This document shows, one piece after another, positions 340-42,612 of a DNA stretch of 64,000 nucleotides. Position 1 is the first letter of the stretch; each line of letters starts with the position of its first letter. The stretch comes from Escherichia coli 042. GTDB lineage: Bacteria > Pseudomonadota > Gammaproteobacteria > Enterobacterales > Enterobacteriaceae. Where the stretch lies: NCBI RefSeq assembly GCF_000027125.1, contig NC_017626.1. One strand, given 5' to 3'. Under the pieces are notes generated by a model that saw nothing but the letters and a program-made list of their open reading frames with translations, was not told the DNA's origin and ran no database searches. The position numbers and the translations under genes were made by a program.

Positions 340-1392
340 GTGAACATATATATCGGGTGGCTTTTCAAATTAATCCCTTTAATTATGGGCTTAATTTGTA
401 TCGCGTTAGGTGGCTTTGTGCTGGAAAGTTCTGGGCAAAGTGAGTATTTCGTCGCGGGTCATGTGCTGATTTCTCTGGCAGCCATATGCCTGGCATTATT
501 CACTACCGCATTTATTATCATTTCGCAGCTCACGCGCGGCGTTAATACGTTTTACAATACATTGTTCCCCATTATTGGCTATGCGGGGTCAATTATCACC
601 ATGATATGGGGTTGGGCACTGTTAGCAGGCAATGATGTGATGGCAGACGAGTTTGTTGCCGGCCATGTTATTTTTGGCGTTGGTATGATTGCCGCCTGTG
701 TATCGACAGTGGCAGCGTCATCCGGTCACTTTCTGCTCATTCCCAAAAACGCAGCAGGGAGCAAGAGCGATGGAACACCGGTACAGGCTTATTCTTCATT
801 AATCGGTAATTGCCTCATTGCCGTTCCCGTTTTACTCACCCTGCTCGGTTTCATTTGGTCTATTACGCTGTTACGTAGTGCCGACATAACTCCGCATTAT
901 GTCGCCGGTCACGTATTGCTTGGGTTAACCGCAATCTGTGCCTGTCTAATTGGCCTTGTTGCCACAATTGTCCATCAAACACGTAATACGTTCTCATCCA
1001 AAGAACACTGGCTGTGGTGTTATTGGGTTATTATTCTCGGCTCAATCACGGTGCTGCAGGGCATATACGTGTTAGTCAGCTCCGATGCAAGCGCCCGACT
1101 GGCTCCCGGCATTATCCTCATTTGCCTCGGAATGATCTGTTACAGCATATTCTCAAAAGTCTGGCTACTGGCACTGGTCTGGAGACGTACCTGTTCGTTA
1201 GCCAACAGAATACCGATGATTCCCGTCTTCACCTGCCTGTTTTGCCTTTTCCTGGCATCGTTTCTTGCAGAAATGGCGCAGACCGACATAGGGTATTTTA
1301 TTCCTTCGCGGGTTCTGGTCGGTTTGGGAGCGGTATGCTTTACGTTGTTCTCAATCGTTTCAATATTAGAAGCAGGTTCTGCTAAAAAATAA
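340..1392 (+). CDS. yhiM: Inner membrane protein YhiM (350 aa, GTG start inside the 241..1392 ORF)
   Basis: Multi-TM hydrophobic protein with three internal copies of an (Y/F)VAGHV motif; GTG at 340 preceded by GAGGAG at 328-333; length and position match K-12 YhiM from memory. Confidence 0.75.
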   Translation: MNIYIGWLFKLIPLIMGLICIALGGFVLESSGQSEYFVAGHVLISLAAICLALFTTAFIIISQLTRGVNTFYNTLFPIIGYAGSIITMIWGWALLAGNDVMADEFVAGHVIFGVGMIAACVSTVAASSGHFLLIPKNAAGSKSDGTPVQAYSSLIGNCLIAVPVLLTLLGFIWSITLLRSADITPHYVAGHVLLGLTAICACLIGLVATIVHQTRNTFSSKEHWLWCYWVIILGSITVLQGIYVLVSSDASARLAPGIILICLGMICYSIFSKVWLLALVWRRTCSLANRIPMIPVFTCLFCLFLASFLAEMAQTDIGYFIPSRVLVGLGAVCFTLFSIVSILEAGSAKK

Positions 1393-1706
1393 TTGCAACG
1401 TACCGGATAAAACCAGCGTTGACCATTTGCGTAACGCTGGTTTTTCTCAGGTATCATGAAATAACGCAGAATTAATGCATAGTGGTTAAGTATAAAAAAA
1501 CAGCAAAGTTGCTGATTTTTTCAACCTGTTCATATTTTATAAAGATCTGGCCACTGGGGGAGTTTTAATCACCTTTCCTTCCACCTTATATTAAGCATGG
1601 AGGGTTTCAGTTCACAGGCTCATTAGAAAATAATCACAAGATAACCACTATCAAAATTAGCTCATTTTTAATGCGACTCTAATAATTTTCATCTTTAGGA
1701 AATAGC

Positions 1707-37214: not shown

Positions 37215-40200
37215 ATGGCTAACTATTTTATTGATCGCCCGGTTTTTGCCTGGGTACTTGCCATTATTATGATGCTTGCAGGCGGTCTGGCGATCATGAA
37301 CTTACCGGTTGCGCAGTATCCGCAGATTGCGCCACCGACCATTACCATCAGCGCTACCTATCCAGGTGCCGATGCGCAAACGGTAGAAGACTCGGTCACT
37401 CAGGTGATTGAGCAAAATATGAATGGGCTTGATGGCCTGATGTACATGTCTTCAACCAGTGATGCGGCGGGTAATGCCTCTATTACTCTGACCTTCGAGA
37501 CTGGGACATCTCCTGATATCGCACAGGTTCAGGTGCAAAATAAACTGCAGCTCGCTATGCCTTCATTACCTGAAGCGGTGCAGCAGCAGGGGATTAGCGT
37601 CGATAAGTCGAGCAGTAATATCCTGATGGTAGCGGCGTTTATTTCTGATAACGGCAGCCTCAACCAGTACGATATCGCGGACTATGTAGCGTCTAATATC
37701 AAAGACCCGCTAAGCCGTACCGCGGGCGTTGGTAGCGTACAGCTCTTTGGTTCCGAGTACGCCATGCGTATCTGGCTGGACCCGCAAAAACTCAATAAAT
37801 ACAATCTGGTACCTTCCGATGTTATTTCCCAGATTAAGGTGCAGAACAACCAGATTTCTGGTGGGCAATTGGGTGGCATGCCACAGGCGGCAGACCAGCA
37901 GCTAAACGCCTCGATCATTGTGCAGACGCGTCTGCAAACGCCGGAAGAATTTGGCAAAATCCTGTTGAAAGTTCAGCAAGATGGTTCGCAAGTGCTGCTG
38001 CGTGATGTCGCCCGCGTCGAACTTGGAGCGGAAGATTATTCCACCGTGGCGCGCTATAACGGCAAACCTGCTGCCGGGATCGCCATCAAACTGGCTACCG
38101 GAGCAAACGCCCTGGATACCTCGCGGGCAGTCAAAGAGGAGCTGAACCGCTTATCAGCCTATTTCCCCGCAAGTCTGAAGACGGTTTATCCTTACGACAC
38201 CACGCCGTTTATCGAAATTTCTATTCAGGAAGTTTTTAAAACACTGGTTGAGGCTATCATCCTCGTCTTCCTGGTCATGTATCTGTTTTTGCAGAATTTC
38301 CGTGCCACAATCATCCCGACGATTGCCGTACCGGTGGTTATTCTCGGGACGTTTGCGATCTTGTCGGCGGTCGGTTTCACCATCAACACGTTAACTATGT
38401 TCGGGATGGTGCTGGCGATAGGGTTACTGGTGGATGACGCCATCGTGGTGGTGGAGAACGTCGAGCGTGTCATTGCGGAAGATAAGCTACCGCCGAAGGA
38501 AGCAACGCATAAATCGATGGGGCAGATCCAACGTGCGCTGGTCGGGATTGCCGTTGTTCTTTCCGCAGTGTTTATGCCGATGGCCTTTATGAGCGGTGCA
38601 ACCGGGGAGATCTACCGCCAGTTCTCCATCACGCTGATCTCCTCCATGCTGCTTTCAGTATTTGTGGCAATGAGCCTGACCCCTGCCCTGTGCGCCACCA
38701 TTCTGAAAGCCGCGCCGGAAGGCGGTCATAAACCTAACGCCCTGTTCGCACGCTTCAACACGCTGTTTGAAAAATCAACTCAGCACTATACCAATAGCAC
38801 CCGCTCGCTGTTGCGTTGTACCGGTCGCTACATGGTGGTCTACCTGCTGATTTGCGCCGGGATGGCGGTGCTGTTCCTGCGTACGCCGACCTCTTTCTTA
38901 CCAGAAGAGGATCAGGGGGTATTTATGACCACCGCGCAGTTACCTTCCGGTGCCACCATGGTTAACACCACGAAAGTGCTGCAACAGGTGACGGATTATT
39001 ATCTGACTAAAGAGAAAGATAATGTTCAGTCGGTGTTTACCGTTGGCGGCTTTGGCTTCAGCGGCCAGGGGCAAAACAACGGTCTGGCGTTTATCAGCCT
39101 CAAACCGTGGTCTGAACGTGTCGGTGAGGAAAACTCGGTTACCGCGATCATTCAGCGGGCAATGATTGCGTTAAGCAGTATCAATAAAGCCGTCGTCTTC
39201 CCGTTCAACTTACCCGCGGTGGCTGAACTGGGTACCGCGTCAGGTTTTGATATGGAACTGCTGGACAACGGCAACCTGGGGCACGAAAAACTGACCCAGG
39301 CGCGAAACGAGCTATTATCACTGGCAGCGCAATCACCGAATCAAGTCACCGGGGTACGTCCGAACGGACTGGAAGATACGCCGATGTTCAAAGTGAACGT
39401 CAACGCCGCGAAAGCTGAGGCAATGGGTGTGGCGCTGTCTGATATCAACCAGACAATTTCCACCGCCTTCGGCAGCAGCTACGTGAACGACTTCCTCAAC
39501 CAGGGGCGGGTGAAAAAAGTGTATGTCCAGGCAGGCACGCCGTTCCGTATGTTGCCGGATAACATCAACCAATGGTATGTACGCAACGCCTCTGGCACGA
39601 TGGCACCGCTTTCGGCCTATTCGTCTACCGAATGGACCTATGGTTCACCGCGACTGGAACGCTACAACGGCATCCCGTCAATGGAGATTTTAGGTGAAGC
39701 GGCGGCCGGGAAAAGTACCGGTGACGCCATGAAATTTATGGCAGACCTGGTCGCTAAACTTCCGGCAGGCGTCGGCTACTCATGGACCGGACTGTCGTAT
39801 CAGGAAGCGTTATCCTCAAATCAGGCTCCCGCGCTGTATGCCATTTCACTGGTCGTGGTGTTCCTCGCCCTCGCCGCACTTTATGAGAGCTGGTCAATTC
39901 CGTTCTCGGTGATGTTGGTTGTACCGTTAGGCGTCGTTGGCGCATTACTGGCCACCGATCTACGCGGCTTAAGTAATGACGTCTACTTCCAGGTTGGTTT
40001 GCTGACCACCATCGGGCTTTCCGCCAAAAACGCCATCCTGATTGTCGAATTTGCCGTTGAGATGATGCAGAAAGAAGGGAAAACGCCGATAGAGGCGATC
40101 ATCGAAGCGGCGCGAATGCGTTTACGCCCAATCCTGATGACCTCTCTGGCCTTTATTCTCGGCCTGCTGCCGCTGGTTATCAGTCATGGTGCCGGTTCTG

Positions 40201-40328
40201 GCGCGCAAAACGCGGTAGGTACCGGCGTGATGGGCGGGATGTTTGCCGCAACAGTGCTGGCAATTTACTTCGTTCCGGTCTTTTTCGTTGTAGTGGAACA
40301 TCTCTTTGCCCGCTTTAAAAAAGCGTAA
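37215..40328 (+). CDS. mdtF: RND multidrug efflux transporter MdtF (1037 aa)
   Basis: AcrB-family 12-TM protein with two large periplasmic loops. Confidence 0.9.
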
Positions 40329-40338
40329 CGTGTAAATG

Positions 40339-40379
40339 AGAGTAAGGTTGAACGTGAGGGTTCAGCCTTACTCTTTCCT
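40339..40379 (+). terminator. Hairpin after mdtF (candidate terminator)
   Basis: gagtaaggttgaac / gttcagccttactc inverted repeat followed by tttcc. Confidence 0.45.
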
Positions 40380-40690
40380 GCCAACCATTCACCACTCAAC
40401 AACCAGCTAACCGTCAGGAATACCAGGCTTAGTACACAGCACTGAAAGTAGAAACCACTCCAGCCATTCGTCATCAATTTGAATAACACAATAGTGACCC
40501 ACATTCCCGTAATCGTATGAATTGTCAGCTTAATAATCCCAAACATGCCGAGTCTTTTCCTCCTGAAAATACCTATACCGCCTGGCAAACTGCGAAAGAG
40601 AACTAGCCGGTAGCCCGGCAGAAATCATCAGGGAAGAGTTTCACATGAAGCAGGTGTGAGATCCTGACCAATATTCAAATGCAAAATATG

Positions 40691-41419
40691 TCAGGAAAAG
40701 GTACCTGGCGAATGTTGCGCAAACTGATGTGGCGTTACACCATAATATTGTCGAAATGTGTTTATAAAGTACGATGTACTGCTATAGCCACATTTTTCCG
40801 CAATAGTATGCAGAGGAATTTGACGTAACTCGAGTAATCGTCTGGCCATCGACATCCTGGAGGCGAGTAATATTTTACTGAAACAGGTATTTTCATCCTG
40901 CAACTTTTTTTTGATTAGACTCTCGCTGGTATACATTCTTTCCGCGATATCGCGCAGATACCAACGTTTAGCGATATCAAAGCTAATAAGGCGTTCAACT
41001 TTTCCTGAAACAGTACTGATACTATTGAAAAGTAAGGGGATCAGTTCTTTCTTATGAGAAAACATCGATAAACAGGAAAGATAGAGCATTTTGCTCAGTA
41101 TCGGCGAATTTACCCCGGAGTCATTGAAACTATCAAAAATCGCCGTCACCAGCGGCATGGGGGGTGACTGGTTAATTAACAGACGGTCTTTGCTATGTAA
41201 CCCTAAATTGCGTGGTATCTGACGAATATTTTGTAAGTAATGGCAAACTGTCAGCTCATCGATATCCAGTCGTCGCGTATCCGGTGAACAAAACGCAAAA
41301 TCGTCTGCCAAATTTTTATCCAGTAACAGGATACTCTCGTTGTGCAACGATATTTTTTGCTGTTCATGATAAATATCGAATGAACGACGAACGAGGATCA
41401 CCGAGCAGACATGAGTCAT
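40691..41419 (-). CDS. gadW: AraC-family regulator GadW (242 aa)
   Basis: C-terminal AraC-type double HTH. Confidence 0.85.
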   Translation of the reverse strand: MTHVCSVILVRRSFDIYHEQQKISLHNESILLLDKNLADDFAFCSPDTRRLDIDELTVCHYLQNIRQIPRNLGLHSKDRLLINQSPPMPLVTAIFDSFNDSGVNSPILSKMLYLSCLSMFSHKKELIPLLFNSISTVSGKVERLISFDIAKRWYLRDIAERMYTSESLIKKKLQDENTCFSKILLASRMSMARRLLELRQIPLHTIAEKCGYSSTSYFINTFRQYYGVTPHQFAQHSPGTFS

Positions 41420-41665
41420 GACTATCCCTTATATTTCATTACTGCGATTATTTCAATTTCAGTATACTAATGAAATGATGCCAGACTGTTTCTTAGCGCA
41501 AAAACTGCCAGATTTGGTAGGACCAAAATTTATCCACAAAGTAGTTTTGCATAACAGTTAATTGATAATAAGTAAATGCAACACGAATATATTTTCGCAC
41601 AGCGTATAGCTTATGTTTATAAAAAAATGGCTGATCTTATTTCCAGTAAAAGTTATATTTAACTT

Positions 41666-41771
41666 ACTGAGAGCACAAAGTTTCCCGTGCCAACAGGGAG
41701 TGTTATAACGGTTTATTAGTCTGGAGACGGCAGACTATCCTCTTCCCGGTCCCCTATGCCGGGTTTTTTTT
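41666..41771 (+). ncRNA. gadY: GadY small RNA, antisense to the gadX 3' UTR
   Basis: Plus-strand segment starting actgagagcacaaag and ending in the terminator ccggtcccctatgccggg plus T8, between gadW and gadX. Confidence 0.65.
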
Positions 41772-41787
41772 ATGTCTGAGTAAAACT

Positions 41788-42612
41788 CTATAATCTTATT
41801 CCTTCCGCAGAACAGTCAGTGCCGTAAAAATTCCCTTGCGCAACAATACTTGCCGCCGAGTCACGGTTCGACAATCCCTGCGCCGATCGCTCCTGATACT
41901 CTGTGGGCGTCATCCCATAATAATTTCGAAAGACGTAAATGAAATACGACACGCTGTGATATCCACAGGACACTGCGACTCGCTTAATTGAAAAGCCATG
42001 TATAACAATAAGTTGCAAAGCATGTTGCATTCTACACTCAGTAAGCAACTGTGAATATGAAGTCTCTTCTTCGCGCAATTTTTTCTTTAACAGGCTTGGA
42101 CTCATCAACAGCTCGCTGGCGATTCGGGCTAGTGTCCACTCATGGGCGATATTATTATTGATAACCGTACAAACTCGTGTTCGCATGTTCGGTTGCAAAA
42201 CGTTCAGAAGTAGCGGTATAAACTGCTCATCCTCCAGAAAAACAGATAACAGCGCAAAGATTAATGCTCTTTTACGTAGCGTTTCTGCATAGCGAAGATT
42301 CTTATTCTGCGATAGTTGCGCAACTTCCTGAAAAACAGGAATATCTCTGGTACAGTGATGAACGAGTAATGAAGGAACTTTTTTATGTGCATGAAGTTTT
42401 AATGCCTCCTCCTTGAGCATCGGGAGAAATAATGAAAGCGTATCCCTTGAAACTAATATGAAATGTTCACCACACTTATCTACTCGAATTTGGCTTGCAT
42501 CCGCAAAAACCAGGTCACCGCCATTAAAATAGCGATATTCACCATTAACCATGGTGAGAATATATTTATGTCTTGCGTACGCAATTAGACAATTCCCATG
42601 TAGTGATTGCAT
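41788..42612 (-). CDS. gadX: AraC-family regulator GadX (274 aa)
   Basis: C-terminal AraC-type HTH; position upstream of gadA on the same strand. Confidence 0.85.
   Translation of the reverse strand: MQSLHGNCLIAYARHKYILTMVNGEYRYFNGGDLVFADASQIRVDKCGEHFILVSRDTLSLFLPMLKEEALKLHAHKKVPSLLVHHCTRDIPVFQEVAQLSQNKNLRYAETLRKRALIFALLSVFLEDEQFIPLLLNVLQPNMRTRVCTVINNNIAHEWTLARIASELLMSPSLLKKKLREEETSYSQLLTECRMQHALQLIVIHGFSIKRVAVSCGYHSVSYFIYVFRNYYGMTPTEYQERSAQGLSNRDSAASIVAQGNFYGTDCSAEGIRL

What the first reader, a model, noticed from the sequence alone, without database searches (positions are those of the whole stretch)
40265..40588. Possible small two-TM protein downstream of gadW
A minus-strand ORF (up to 107 aa) begins just downstream of gadW and encodes two hydrophobic helices; one internal ATG (MFGIIKL) has a CAGGAGG sequence 12 nt upstream. 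It could be an unannotated small membrane protein, but it overlaps the mdtF 3' end and terminator so it may be spurious.
Basis: seen in the sequence. Interest (0 to 1): 0.3.

Follow-up and report, generated by a model that had tools for sequence, protein, structure and literature searches.

The report
Known small membrane gene rcpA/sORF15
The ORF downstream of gadW is a real, conserved gene for a 93-residue two-helix membrane protein. It has been published three times (XECs371 in 2017, rcpA in 2018, sORF15 in 2023) but is still missing from the standard E. coli annotation, so the finding is correct but not new.

Summary
A minus-strand ORF lies at 40265..40588, and an internal ATG at 40546 sits 12 nt after an AGGAGG.

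The real gene is the 93-codon version, 40265..40546. It is intact and free of indels in eight Escherichia lineages, including E. albertii and E. whittamii. Its first 57 codons, which encode the two hydrophobic helices, have dN/dS of 0.06-0.25, similar to gadW. The other five frames all contain stops.

E. fergusonii has a 54-residue ortholog at the same gadW/mdtF junction. It lacks the basic C-terminal tail. The two-helix core is therefore the shared part, and the tail, which runs through the mdtF terminator and antisense to mdtF, is specific to part of the genus.

The gene is already in the literature:
- XECs371 (Hücker 2017): ribosome profiling in O157:H7 Sakai.
- rcpA (Nhu 2018): overexpression shuts off csgD/csgA and curli.
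- sORF15 (Schumacher 2023): ribosome footprints about 18-fold higher at pH 4.4, and a FLAG-tagged product on a Western blot.

RefSeq does not annotate it in K-12, nor under the match in any of the 30 listed E. coli genomes.

The biochemical mechanism is unknown. My best inference is a small inner-membrane regulator that is induced together with gadW.

The parts
40265..40546 (-). rcpA / sORF15 / XECs371 coding sequence: 93 codons plus TAA stop.
   Evidence: The ORF is intact, 93 codons long and free of indels in 8 Escherichia lineages. It maps exactly to NC_000913.3:3663464-3663745(-), which is sORF15 in Table S7 of PMC10746267. The rcpA qRT-PCR primers of PMC6106082 match exactly at 40461..40479(-) and 40363..40381(+).
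40559..40564 (-). Shine-Dalgarno sequence AGGAGG, 12 nt before the ATG.
   Evidence: GGAGGAAAA is invariant in all 8 lineages, whereas the spacer upstream of it is 20-30% divergent and contains indels.
40376..40546 (-). Codons 1-57: the conserved two-helix transmembrane core, with the invariant motif GWSGF-F-CC at the loop/helix-2 boundary.
   Evidence: Variable sites by codon position are 17/11/35. NG86 dN/dS is 0.06-0.25. This is the only one of the six frames without stops. The core is shared with the 54-aa E. fergusonii ortholog.
40268..40375 (-). Codons 58-93: basic C-terminal tail (11 K/R against 1 E over residues 56-93), predicted as a third helix and predicted to be cytoplasmic.
   Evidence: The tail is absent from the E. 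fergusonii ortholog and is replaced by frameshifted variants in some E. coli assemblies. Its conservation cannot be separated from the constraints imposed by the hairpin and by mdtF.
40340..40373 (+). mdtF terminator hairpin, which lies inside rcpA codons 58-69.
   Evidence: -27.1 kcal/mol on the + strand (z = -5.2). On the minus strand the same hairpin has a C-A mismatch, and the 71-nt minus-strand stretch folds at -23.8 kcal/mol (z = -3.0).
40265..40328 (.). 64-nt antisense overlap of the rcpA 3' end with the last 21 codons and stop of mdtF. Third codon positions coincide on the two strands.
   Evidence: One search gives the coordinates. One search shows 0 nonsynonymous and up to 4 synonymous differences per pair in the rcpA frame.
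40547..40690 (-). gadW-rcpA spacer (described as the gadW 3' UTR). It contains the non-conserved TTG extension, sORF14 (40603..40644) and a small terminator-like hairpin (40606..40619).
   Evidence: The spacer is 20-30% divergent with 14 gap columns. No sigma-70-like promoter was found on the minus strand.
40691..41419 (-). gadW, the upstream gene. Schumacher 2023 places rcpA in one transcription unit with gadW/gadX.
37215..40328 (+). mdtF, the convergent RND pump gene.

Best explanation
The feature is the gene published as rcpA (also called sORF15 and XECs371). It is a genus-restricted, protein-coding gene at the 3' end of the gadX-gadW region of the E. coli acid fitness island.

Shown:
- It starts at the ATG at 40546, behind a conserved AGGAGG.
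- It encodes 93 residues: two hydrophobic helices joined by a very short loop (TNGWSG), followed by a basic tail.
- The two-helix core is under purifying selection as strong as that on gadW.

From the literature:
- Its mRNA and ribosome footprints rise about 16-18-fold at pH 4.4, together with gadW.
- A FLAG-tagged product is made.
- Overexpression lowers csgD and csgA mRNA by orders of magnitude, abolishes curli, and attenuates bladder colonisation.

Inferred (about 35% confidence for this step): RcpA sits in the inner membrane with both ends in the cytoplasm. It would act like other small membrane regulators, binding a membrane signalling protein upstream of csgD. The result would be that matrix production is switched off while the Gad acid response is on.

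Also inferred: the roughly 54-57-residue core is the shared and probably ancestral functional unit. The tail that reads through the mdtF terminator into antisense mdtF is a lineage-specific difference.
For: Identity:
- The offset between window and K-12 coordinates is exact, and the K-12 translation equals the sORF15 sequence.
- The rcpA primers map inside the ORF.
- The XECs371 sequence contains the same protein.

Coding:
- The ORF is intact in 8 lineages.
- Variable sites by codon position are 17/11/35, and dN/dS is 0.06-0.25, against 0.06-0.15 for gadW in the same pairs.
- Fisher p ranges from 1.7e-9 to 8e-11 for the deepest pairs.
- SD and ATG are nearly invariant next to a variable spacer.
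- The region is present at 80% coverage or more in 5408 of 5426 complete E. coli genomes.
- The exact protein occurs on at least 1000 contigs as a 'hypothetical protein'.

Core versus tail:
- The syntenic E. fergusonii ortholog has 54 aa, is 49% identical, and stops before its own terminator.
- Some E. coli assemblies carry frameshifted tails.

Expression and phenotype: PMC10746267 and PMC6106082.

Topology: two hydrophobic peaks and a tail with 11 K/R; AF2 helices.
Against: - All functional data come from overexpression (Tn5 read-in, PcL promoter, plasmids). In the text I read, no start-codon or deletion mutant phenotype and no native-locus tagged protein is reported.
- Overproducing a hydrophobic protein can repress csgD indirectly through envelope stress.
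- No partner protein is known.
- There is no Pfam or NCBIfam match and no homolog outside Escherichia, so nothing can be transferred by homology.
- The AF2 model has only moderate confidence (mean pLDDT 64.8).
- A few assemblies encode products truncated inside helix 2 (46-54 aa).
- A terminator-like hairpin lies between gadW and rcpA, so co-transcription needs read-through.
- RefSeq does not annotate the gene in K-12, nor under the match in any of the 30 E. coli genomes listed.
Confidence: 0.8

Rival explanations
1. The ORF is spurious. It would be a chance open frame in the gadW 3' UTR, kept open only because its end is antisense to mdtF and because the region is conserved as RNA or DNA.
For: An ORF of this length arises in about 2% of shuffles of the region, and the window holds 108 ORFs of at least 93 aa. 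The last third overlaps a terminator and mdtF, with third codon positions coinciding, which tends to keep antisense frames open. RefSeq does not annotate it.
Against: - The 171 nt that overlap nothing show third-position-biased variation and dN/dS of 0.06-0.25, and the other five frames all contain stops.
- There are no indels in the ORF across 8 lineages, while the adjacent spacer has 14 gap columns.
- SD and ATG are conserved.
- A 49%-identical ORF sits at the same position in E. fergusonii.
- Ribosome footprints and a tagged product have been published.
Confidence: 0.02
2. RcpA is an accessory or modulator of a neighbouring acid-island transporter, either the MdtEF-TolC pump (as AcrZ is for AcrB) or the GadC antiporter. 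On this view, curli repression is a side effect.
For: The gene is convergent with and overlaps mdtF in all E. coli-type lineages, and stays next to mdtF in E. fergusonii. It is induced together with the Gad genes. Schumacher 2023 proposes this association.
Against: There is no sequence similarity to any Pfam family, AcrZ included, at E up to 10. RcpA has two TM helices whereas AcrZ has one. No interaction data exist. The only reported phenotype is transcriptional (csgD mRNA), which a pump accessory does not readily explain.
Confidence: 0.2
3. The gene is real, but the curli phenotype is an overexpression artefact. Excess hydrophobic peptide would trigger Cpx, Rcs or sigma-E envelope stress, which represses csgD. 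The native function would be something else or only marginal.
For: All phenotypes come from strong promoters, with rcpA mRNA up log2 5.5-11.4. The family is young and genus-restricted. Some strains carry truncated or frameshifted alleles.
Against: The original Tn5 mutant raised rcpA mRNA only about 3.2-fold yet lowered csgD about 70-fold. Natural acid induction is larger than that, about 16-fold. Purifying selection on the core argues for a native function.
Confidence: 0.25

Closest known systems
RcpA (MS7163_03831), 'repressor of curli production', Nhu et al. 2018, mBio 9:e01462-18 (PMC6106082)
   Same: It is the same gene: a 282-bp CDS encoding 93 aa, located downstream of gadW. Two TM helices and a cytoplasmic C-terminus are predicted. 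The published qRT-PCR primers match the window exactly inside the ORF.
   Different: Nothing differs in kind; this is a strain-level allele. That paper did not report the acid induction, the overlap with mdtF, or any selection analysis.
sORF15, Schumacher et al. 2023, mSystems 8:e01037-23 (PMC10746267)
   Same: It is the same locus in K-12, NC_000913.3:3663464-3663745(-). The window protein differs at 2 of 93 residues (T18S, R65C).
   Different: That paper does not cite rcpA. It reports homologs above 80% identity in Vibrio, Klebsiella, Salmonella and Enterococcus. I could not reproduce these: searches of 5.8 and 1.84 billion proteins returned only variants of the same locus, and every hit that carries an organism name is Escherichia.
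XECs371, Hücker et al. 2017, PLoS One 12:e0184119 (PMC5597208)
   Same: It is the same ORF in O157:H7 Sakai. It has RIBOseq coverage, is predicted to be in the inner membrane with 2 TM helices, and is classed 'real'.
   Different: It was called with a longer 354-nt frame. That N-terminal extension is not conserved across species.
MgrB / SafA type small inner-membrane regulators of sensor kinases (E. coli)
   Same: These are small hydrophobic inner-membrane proteins encoded within a stress regulon that alter transcription of distant genes. SafA also belongs to the acid-resistance network. Nhu et al. draw the MgrB analogy themselves.
   Different: There is no sequence similarity. MgrB and SafA each have one TM helix, whereas RcpA has two plus a basic tail. 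No kinase partner is known for RcpA. This is an analogy, not family membership.
AcrZ, the small accessory protein of the RND pump AcrB
   Same: It is a small membrane protein associated with an RND pump, and rcpA abuts the AcrB paralog mdtF.
   Different: There is no homology. AcrZ has a single TM helix. It is encoded away from acrB and co-regulated with it, whereas rcpA is convergent with mdtF. No evidence of binding exists.

Membership tests
rcpA / sORF15 / XECs371 (gadW-downstream 93-aa protein of E. coli) | Same sequence and genomic coordinates as the published K-12 sORF15 | tested here: met
   The window-to-K-12 offset of +3623199 holds at both flanking genes. The ATG at 40546 corresponds to 3663745 and the stop at 40265 to 3663464, as in Table S7. 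91 of 93 residues are identical.
rcpA / sORF15 / XECs371 (gadW-downstream 93-aa protein of E. coli) | The published rcpA qRT-PCR primers lie inside the ORF | tested here: met
   Exact single matches at 40461..40479(-) and 40363..40381(+).
rcpA / sORF15 / XECs371 (gadW-downstream 93-aa protein of E. coli) | Synteny: located between gadW and the convergent mdtF | tested here: met
   The same junction is found in E. fergusonii.
rcpA / sORF15 / XECs371 (gadW-downstream 93-aa protein of E. coli) | Overexpression represses csgD/csgA and curli | not testable with these tools
   Known only from the literature (PMC6106082).
Protein-coding gene (as opposed to a chance ORF) | Purifying selection at the codon level in this frame only | tested here: met
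   dN/dS is 0.06-0.25 in the ORF frame. The other four non-equivalent frames are near or above 1 and contain stops. The antisense frame that shares third positions also has a low ratio, but it has 3 stops.
Protein-coding gene (as opposed to a chance ORF) | Conserved translation start signals | tested here: met
   GGAGGAAAA and the ATG are kept in 8 lineages, while the flanking spacer is 20-30% divergent and has indels.
Small two-TM inner-membrane protein | Two hydrophobic helices long enough to span the membrane, with positive charge on the cytoplasmic side | tested here: met
   Kyte-Doolittle peaks of 1.68 and 1.95. AF2 helices at 2-26 and 31-56. The tail has 11 K/R. Published TMHMM and DeepTMHMM predictions agree. 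Actual localisation has not been tested.
MgrB/SafA-like regulators of sensor kinases | Sequence homology to a described family | tested here: not met
   No Pfam or NCBIfam hit at E up to 10.
MgrB/SafA-like regulators of sensor kinases | Physical interaction with, and modulation of, a sensor kinase | not testable with these tools
   No data are available; this is an analogy only.
AcrZ-like RND pump accessory protein | Homology to AcrZ, or binding to the RND transmembrane domain | tested here: not met
   There is no Pfam match of any kind. Binding cannot be tested here.
Type I toxin (small hydrophobic toxic peptide with antisense RNA) | Toxicity on overexpression and a dedicated antisense sRNA | not tested
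   Published overexpression strains grew, were assayed on plates and infected mice, which argues against strong toxicity. The only antisense partner is the mdtF 3' end. No Rfam family lies in the region apart from GadY, which is farther upstream.

The most novel reading that the evidence does not exclude
RcpA could be the acid fitness island's own membrane 'connector'. Induced with gadXW at low pH, its two-helix core would bind a specific membrane signalling protein (a sensor kinase or a c-di-GMP enzyme) and switch off csgD and curli during acid stress. In addition, its basic tail would have arisen in one branch of Escherichia when the reading frame came to extend past the position of the stop seen in E. 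fergusonii, into the mdtF terminator and antisense mdtF. That would be a datable case of a coding extension written over a terminator and a convergent gene. Ribosomes translating rcpA would then also melt the shared terminator and couple the expression of rcpA and mdtF.
Probability: 0.2. Interest if true: 0.5.

Novelty: already known. Interest (0 to 1): 0.22.

Why it matters
The practical value is curation. A gene with ribosome-profiling support in two strains, a tagged product, an overexpression phenotype in curli formation and bladder colonisation, and (shown here) clear purifying selection across the genus is still absent from the K-12 reference and from the RefSeq annotation of every E. 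coli genome I inspected.

It also circulates under three unconnected names: XECs371, rcpA and sORF15. Linking them joins two observations that had been separate. The gene is induced by acid together with gadW, and its product represses csgD. Together these suggest a testable link between the Gad acid response and biofilm matrix control.

The short E. fergusonii ortholog gives a ready-made test of which part of the protein matters.

Tried and rejected
- **The 107-aa TTG start.** Rejected. The 14-codon extension is not conserved as protein: LPGGIGIF.. in E. coli against LQNSKRIF.. and LQIDKGIF.. in other lineages. The region upstream of it has frame-breaking indels. Published constructs that begin 15 nt before the ATG, or carry a Tn5 at -25, still give product or phenotype.
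- **Pfam and NCBIfam scans at E up to 10.** No hits.
- **Homologs outside Escherichia.** Searches with the single sequence, with a core profile against 1.84 billion representatives, and with a profile including E. fergusonii against 5.8 billion proteins returned only variants of the same locus; every named hit is Escherichia. A tblastn search of 72,556 plasmid records hit only three mis-filed chromosomes.
- **An own promoter for rcpA.** No sigma-70-like site on the minus strand in 40200..41000.
- **A known RNA family in the spacer.** Only GadY at 41663..41776.
- **Independent detection in neutral-pH start-site profiling.** There is no entry in the held supplement of Stringer 2021. The Weaver 2019 and Meydan 2019 supplements are not held.
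- **Selection on the tail.** Inconclusive. Codons 58-73 show too few changes (pN/pS 0-1), and codons 74-93 share third positions with mdtF.
- **Fold search.** Not run. The model has mean pLDDT 64.8 and is a plain helical hairpin, so matches would be meaningless.
- **RcpA-MdtF complex prediction.** Not attempted. The structure tool returns no inter-residue information.
- **Other 'rcpA' papers.** They concern the unrelated Aggregatibacter/Pseudomonas tad gene.

Full report
**Setting.** The window carries the E. coli acid fitness island: mdtF at 37215..40328 (+), gadW at 40691..41419 (-) and gadX at 41788..42612 (-), with GadY at 41663..41776. The 551 nt around the finding are present at 80% coverage or more in 5408 of 5426 complete E. 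coli genomes. In the 30 listed genomes, RefSeq annotates only mdtF and gadW under the match, plus an IS1 transposase in one strain. K-12 MG1655 (NC_000913.3) has nothing annotated between mdtF and gadW.

**Observation.**
- The minus-strand ORF at 40265..40588 (107 aa from TTG) exists.
- The internal ATG has its A at 40546. AGGAGG lies at 40564..40559, with 12 nt between them.
- From the ATG the product has 93 residues. It has two hydrophobic segments, with Kyte-Doolittle 19-residue means peaking at 1.68 and 1.95. The C-terminal 38 residues carry 11 K/R against 1 E.
- AlphaFold2 with a 10-sequence alignment gives helices at 2-26, 31-56 and 64-89, at mean pLDDT 64.8.
- The 3' end overlaps mdtF by 64 nt. 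Codons 58-69 are the mdtF terminator hairpin at 40340..40373.
- ORF length alone is weak evidence: about 2% of shuffles of this stretch give an ATG ORF of at least 93 codons.

**Is it a gene?** A scan of species-representative genomes with GadW returned six Escherichia loci, including E. whittamii and E. albertii.
- The region aligns throughout. The ORF from the ATG is 93 codons long, with no indel and no stop, in all eight sequences.
- The gadW-to-SD spacer is 20-30% divergent with 14 gap columns. By contrast, GGAGGAAAA and the ATG are essentially fixed.
- Codons 1-57 overlap nothing on either strand. There, variable sites fall 17/11/35 by codon position. Nei-Gojobori dN/dS is 0.06-0.25 for all informative pairs, and Fisher p is 1.7e-9 to 8e-11 for the deep pairs.
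- The other frames contain 2-7 stops and have ratios near or above 1. The exception is the antisense frame that shares third positions, which has 3 stops.
- gadW has dN/dS of 0.06-0.15 in the same pairs, so the core is as constrained as a bona fide neighbouring gene.
- The 14-codon TTG extension is not conserved as protein, and the sequence upstream of it has frame-breaking indels. The start is therefore the ATG.

**Distribution, core and tail.**
- Searches of 5.8 billion and 1.84 billion proteins found only variants of this locus; every hit that carries an organism name is Escherichia. There are no Pfam or NCBIfam matches.
- The exact 93-aa protein is on at least 1000 contigs and appears in GenBank submitter annotations as 'hypothetical protein', for example AQV29643.1 and Shigella boydii OOO82246.1.
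- The most distant relative is a 54-aa protein of E. fergusonii ATCC 35469, 49% identical over 41 residues. It starts 19 nt after a GadW ortholog that is 62% identical to GadW. It stops just before a different terminator hairpin, 41 nt from the end of the convergent mdtF.
- That ortholog keeps I5, T13, V17, V20, L21, L24, the GWSGF motif, F34 and C36/C37.
- The two-helix core is therefore the shared part. The 36-residue tail that reads through the terminator into antisense mdtF is found only in the E. coli/E. albertii-type lineages.
- Several E. coli assemblies carry frameshifted tails (76, 82 or 141 aa) with an intact core. A few are truncated inside helix 2.
- Selection on the tail cannot be separated from the constraints of the hairpin and of mdtF.

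**What is already known.** The literature search identified this ORF three times.
1. Hücker et al. 2017 (PMC5597208) list it as XECs371 in O157:H7 Sakai. It has RIBOseq coverage and an inner-membrane, two-TM prediction, and is classed 'real'.
2. Nhu et al. 2018 (PMC6106082) named it rcpA. It is a 282-bp, 93-aa CDS downstream of gadW.
   - Three Tn5 insertions at -23, -25 and -26 read into it and abolish curli.
   - A chromosomal PcL promoter or a plasmid lowers csgD (log2 -8.5 and -6.6) and csgA (log2 -13.9 and -7.3) mRNA, also in UTI89.
   - The PcL strain is outcompeted in mouse bladder.
   - Their qRT-PCR primers match the window inside the ORF.
3. Schumacher et al. 2023 (PMC10746267) found it by inspecting the gadW 3' UTR in Ribo-seq data and called it sORF15.
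   - Its coordinates, NC_000913.3:3663464-3663745(-), are exactly those I derived.
   - Ribosome footprints are up log2 4.2 (padj 1e-38) and RNA up log2 4.0 at pH 4.4.
   - They report two TM helices by DeepTMHMM and a 3xFLAG product from pBAD24.
   - The paper does not cite rcpA.

I found no follow-up under either name.

**How it most likely works.**
- Shown here: it is a translatable, selected gene encoding a two-helix hydrophobic core and a basic tail.
- Shown in the literature: it is induced by acid together with gadW, it is translated, and it strongly represses csgD transcription when overexpressed.
- Inferred: it has an inner-membrane hairpin topology with both termini in the cytoplasm. 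It would act through a membrane signalling partner to shut down curli while the Gad response is on, by analogy with MgrB and SafA. I put this mechanism at about 35%.
- Rivals: a transporter accessory for MdtEF or GadC (about 20%), and a csgD effect that is an envelope-stress artefact of overproduction (about 25%).
- Against the artefact: a 3.2-fold rise in rcpA mRNA already cut csgD about 70-fold, and natural acid induction is larger than that.

**Verdict.** The gene is real, but it is already described, so novelty is 'already known' and interest is low. This analysis adds four things:
- the link between the three published names;
- codon-level evidence of selection across the genus;
- the short syntenic E. 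fergusonii ortholog, which defines the conserved core;
- failure to reproduce the reported homologs outside Escherichia. The published out-of-genus hits at up to 100% identity in Klebsiella and Staphylococcus look like mislabelled records.

Noticed in passing
window 40603..40644 (-): sORF14 (13 aa, GTG start), proposed by Schumacher 2023 in the same gadW 3' UTR, is not kept as an ORF in other Escherichia species. The frame runs 6 to 126 codons, the TAG stop becomes AAG, and indels shift the frame. It has no evolutionary support as a coding sequence.
   Followed up: partly
window 40606..40619 (-), with T-rich tail to about 40596: A small hairpin, GCCGG-GCTA-CCGGC followed by TAGTTCTCTT, scores as terminator-like. 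It lies between gadW and rcpA, inside sORF14. The hairpin can still form in all 8 lineages (some arms differ, including a G-U pair). If it terminates transcription, rcpA expression depends on read-through.
   Followed up: partly
window about 40662..40696 (-): An inverted repeat, TCCTGAC ... GTCAGGA, spans the gadW stop codon. Its arms are kept (one C/T difference) in all 8 Escherichia lineages even though the loop varies. Its function is unknown.
   Followed up: no
window about 40657..40666; L011 (NZ_CP090319.1) 768..1534: Strain EECO1006 is otherwise 99.9-100% identical to the window. It carries an IS1 inserted 25-34 nt downstream of the gadW stop, which separates gadW from rcpA. This is a natural test of whether rcpA needs gadW read-through.
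   Followed up: partly
L010 7979..8210 (E. fergusonii CU928158.2): The E. fergusonii ortholog was called from a GTG 19 nt after the gadW stop and has no AGGAGG, which suggests translational coupling. It ends at TAA immediately before a different hairpin, AAGGCCGG-TTTC-CCGGCCTT.
   Followed up: partly
window 40265..40328: The mdtF segment that overlaps rcpA is less divergent between species (2-6%) than the next 264 nt of mdtF (7-11%). This is consistent with double coding constraint, but it rests on only 64 nt.
   Followed up: no
PLSDB records NZ_CP141089.1, NZ_OL790696.1, NZ_CP134663.1: Three 'plasmid' records of 4.8-4.9 Mb are E. coli chromosomes filed as plasmids.
   Followed up: no
protein P0029 (Logan assembly, 30 contigs): This variant of the protein has many T-to-I/M and similar changes along its whole length. 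The pattern looks like C-to-T damaged or chemically converted reads rather than natural divergence.
   Followed up: no
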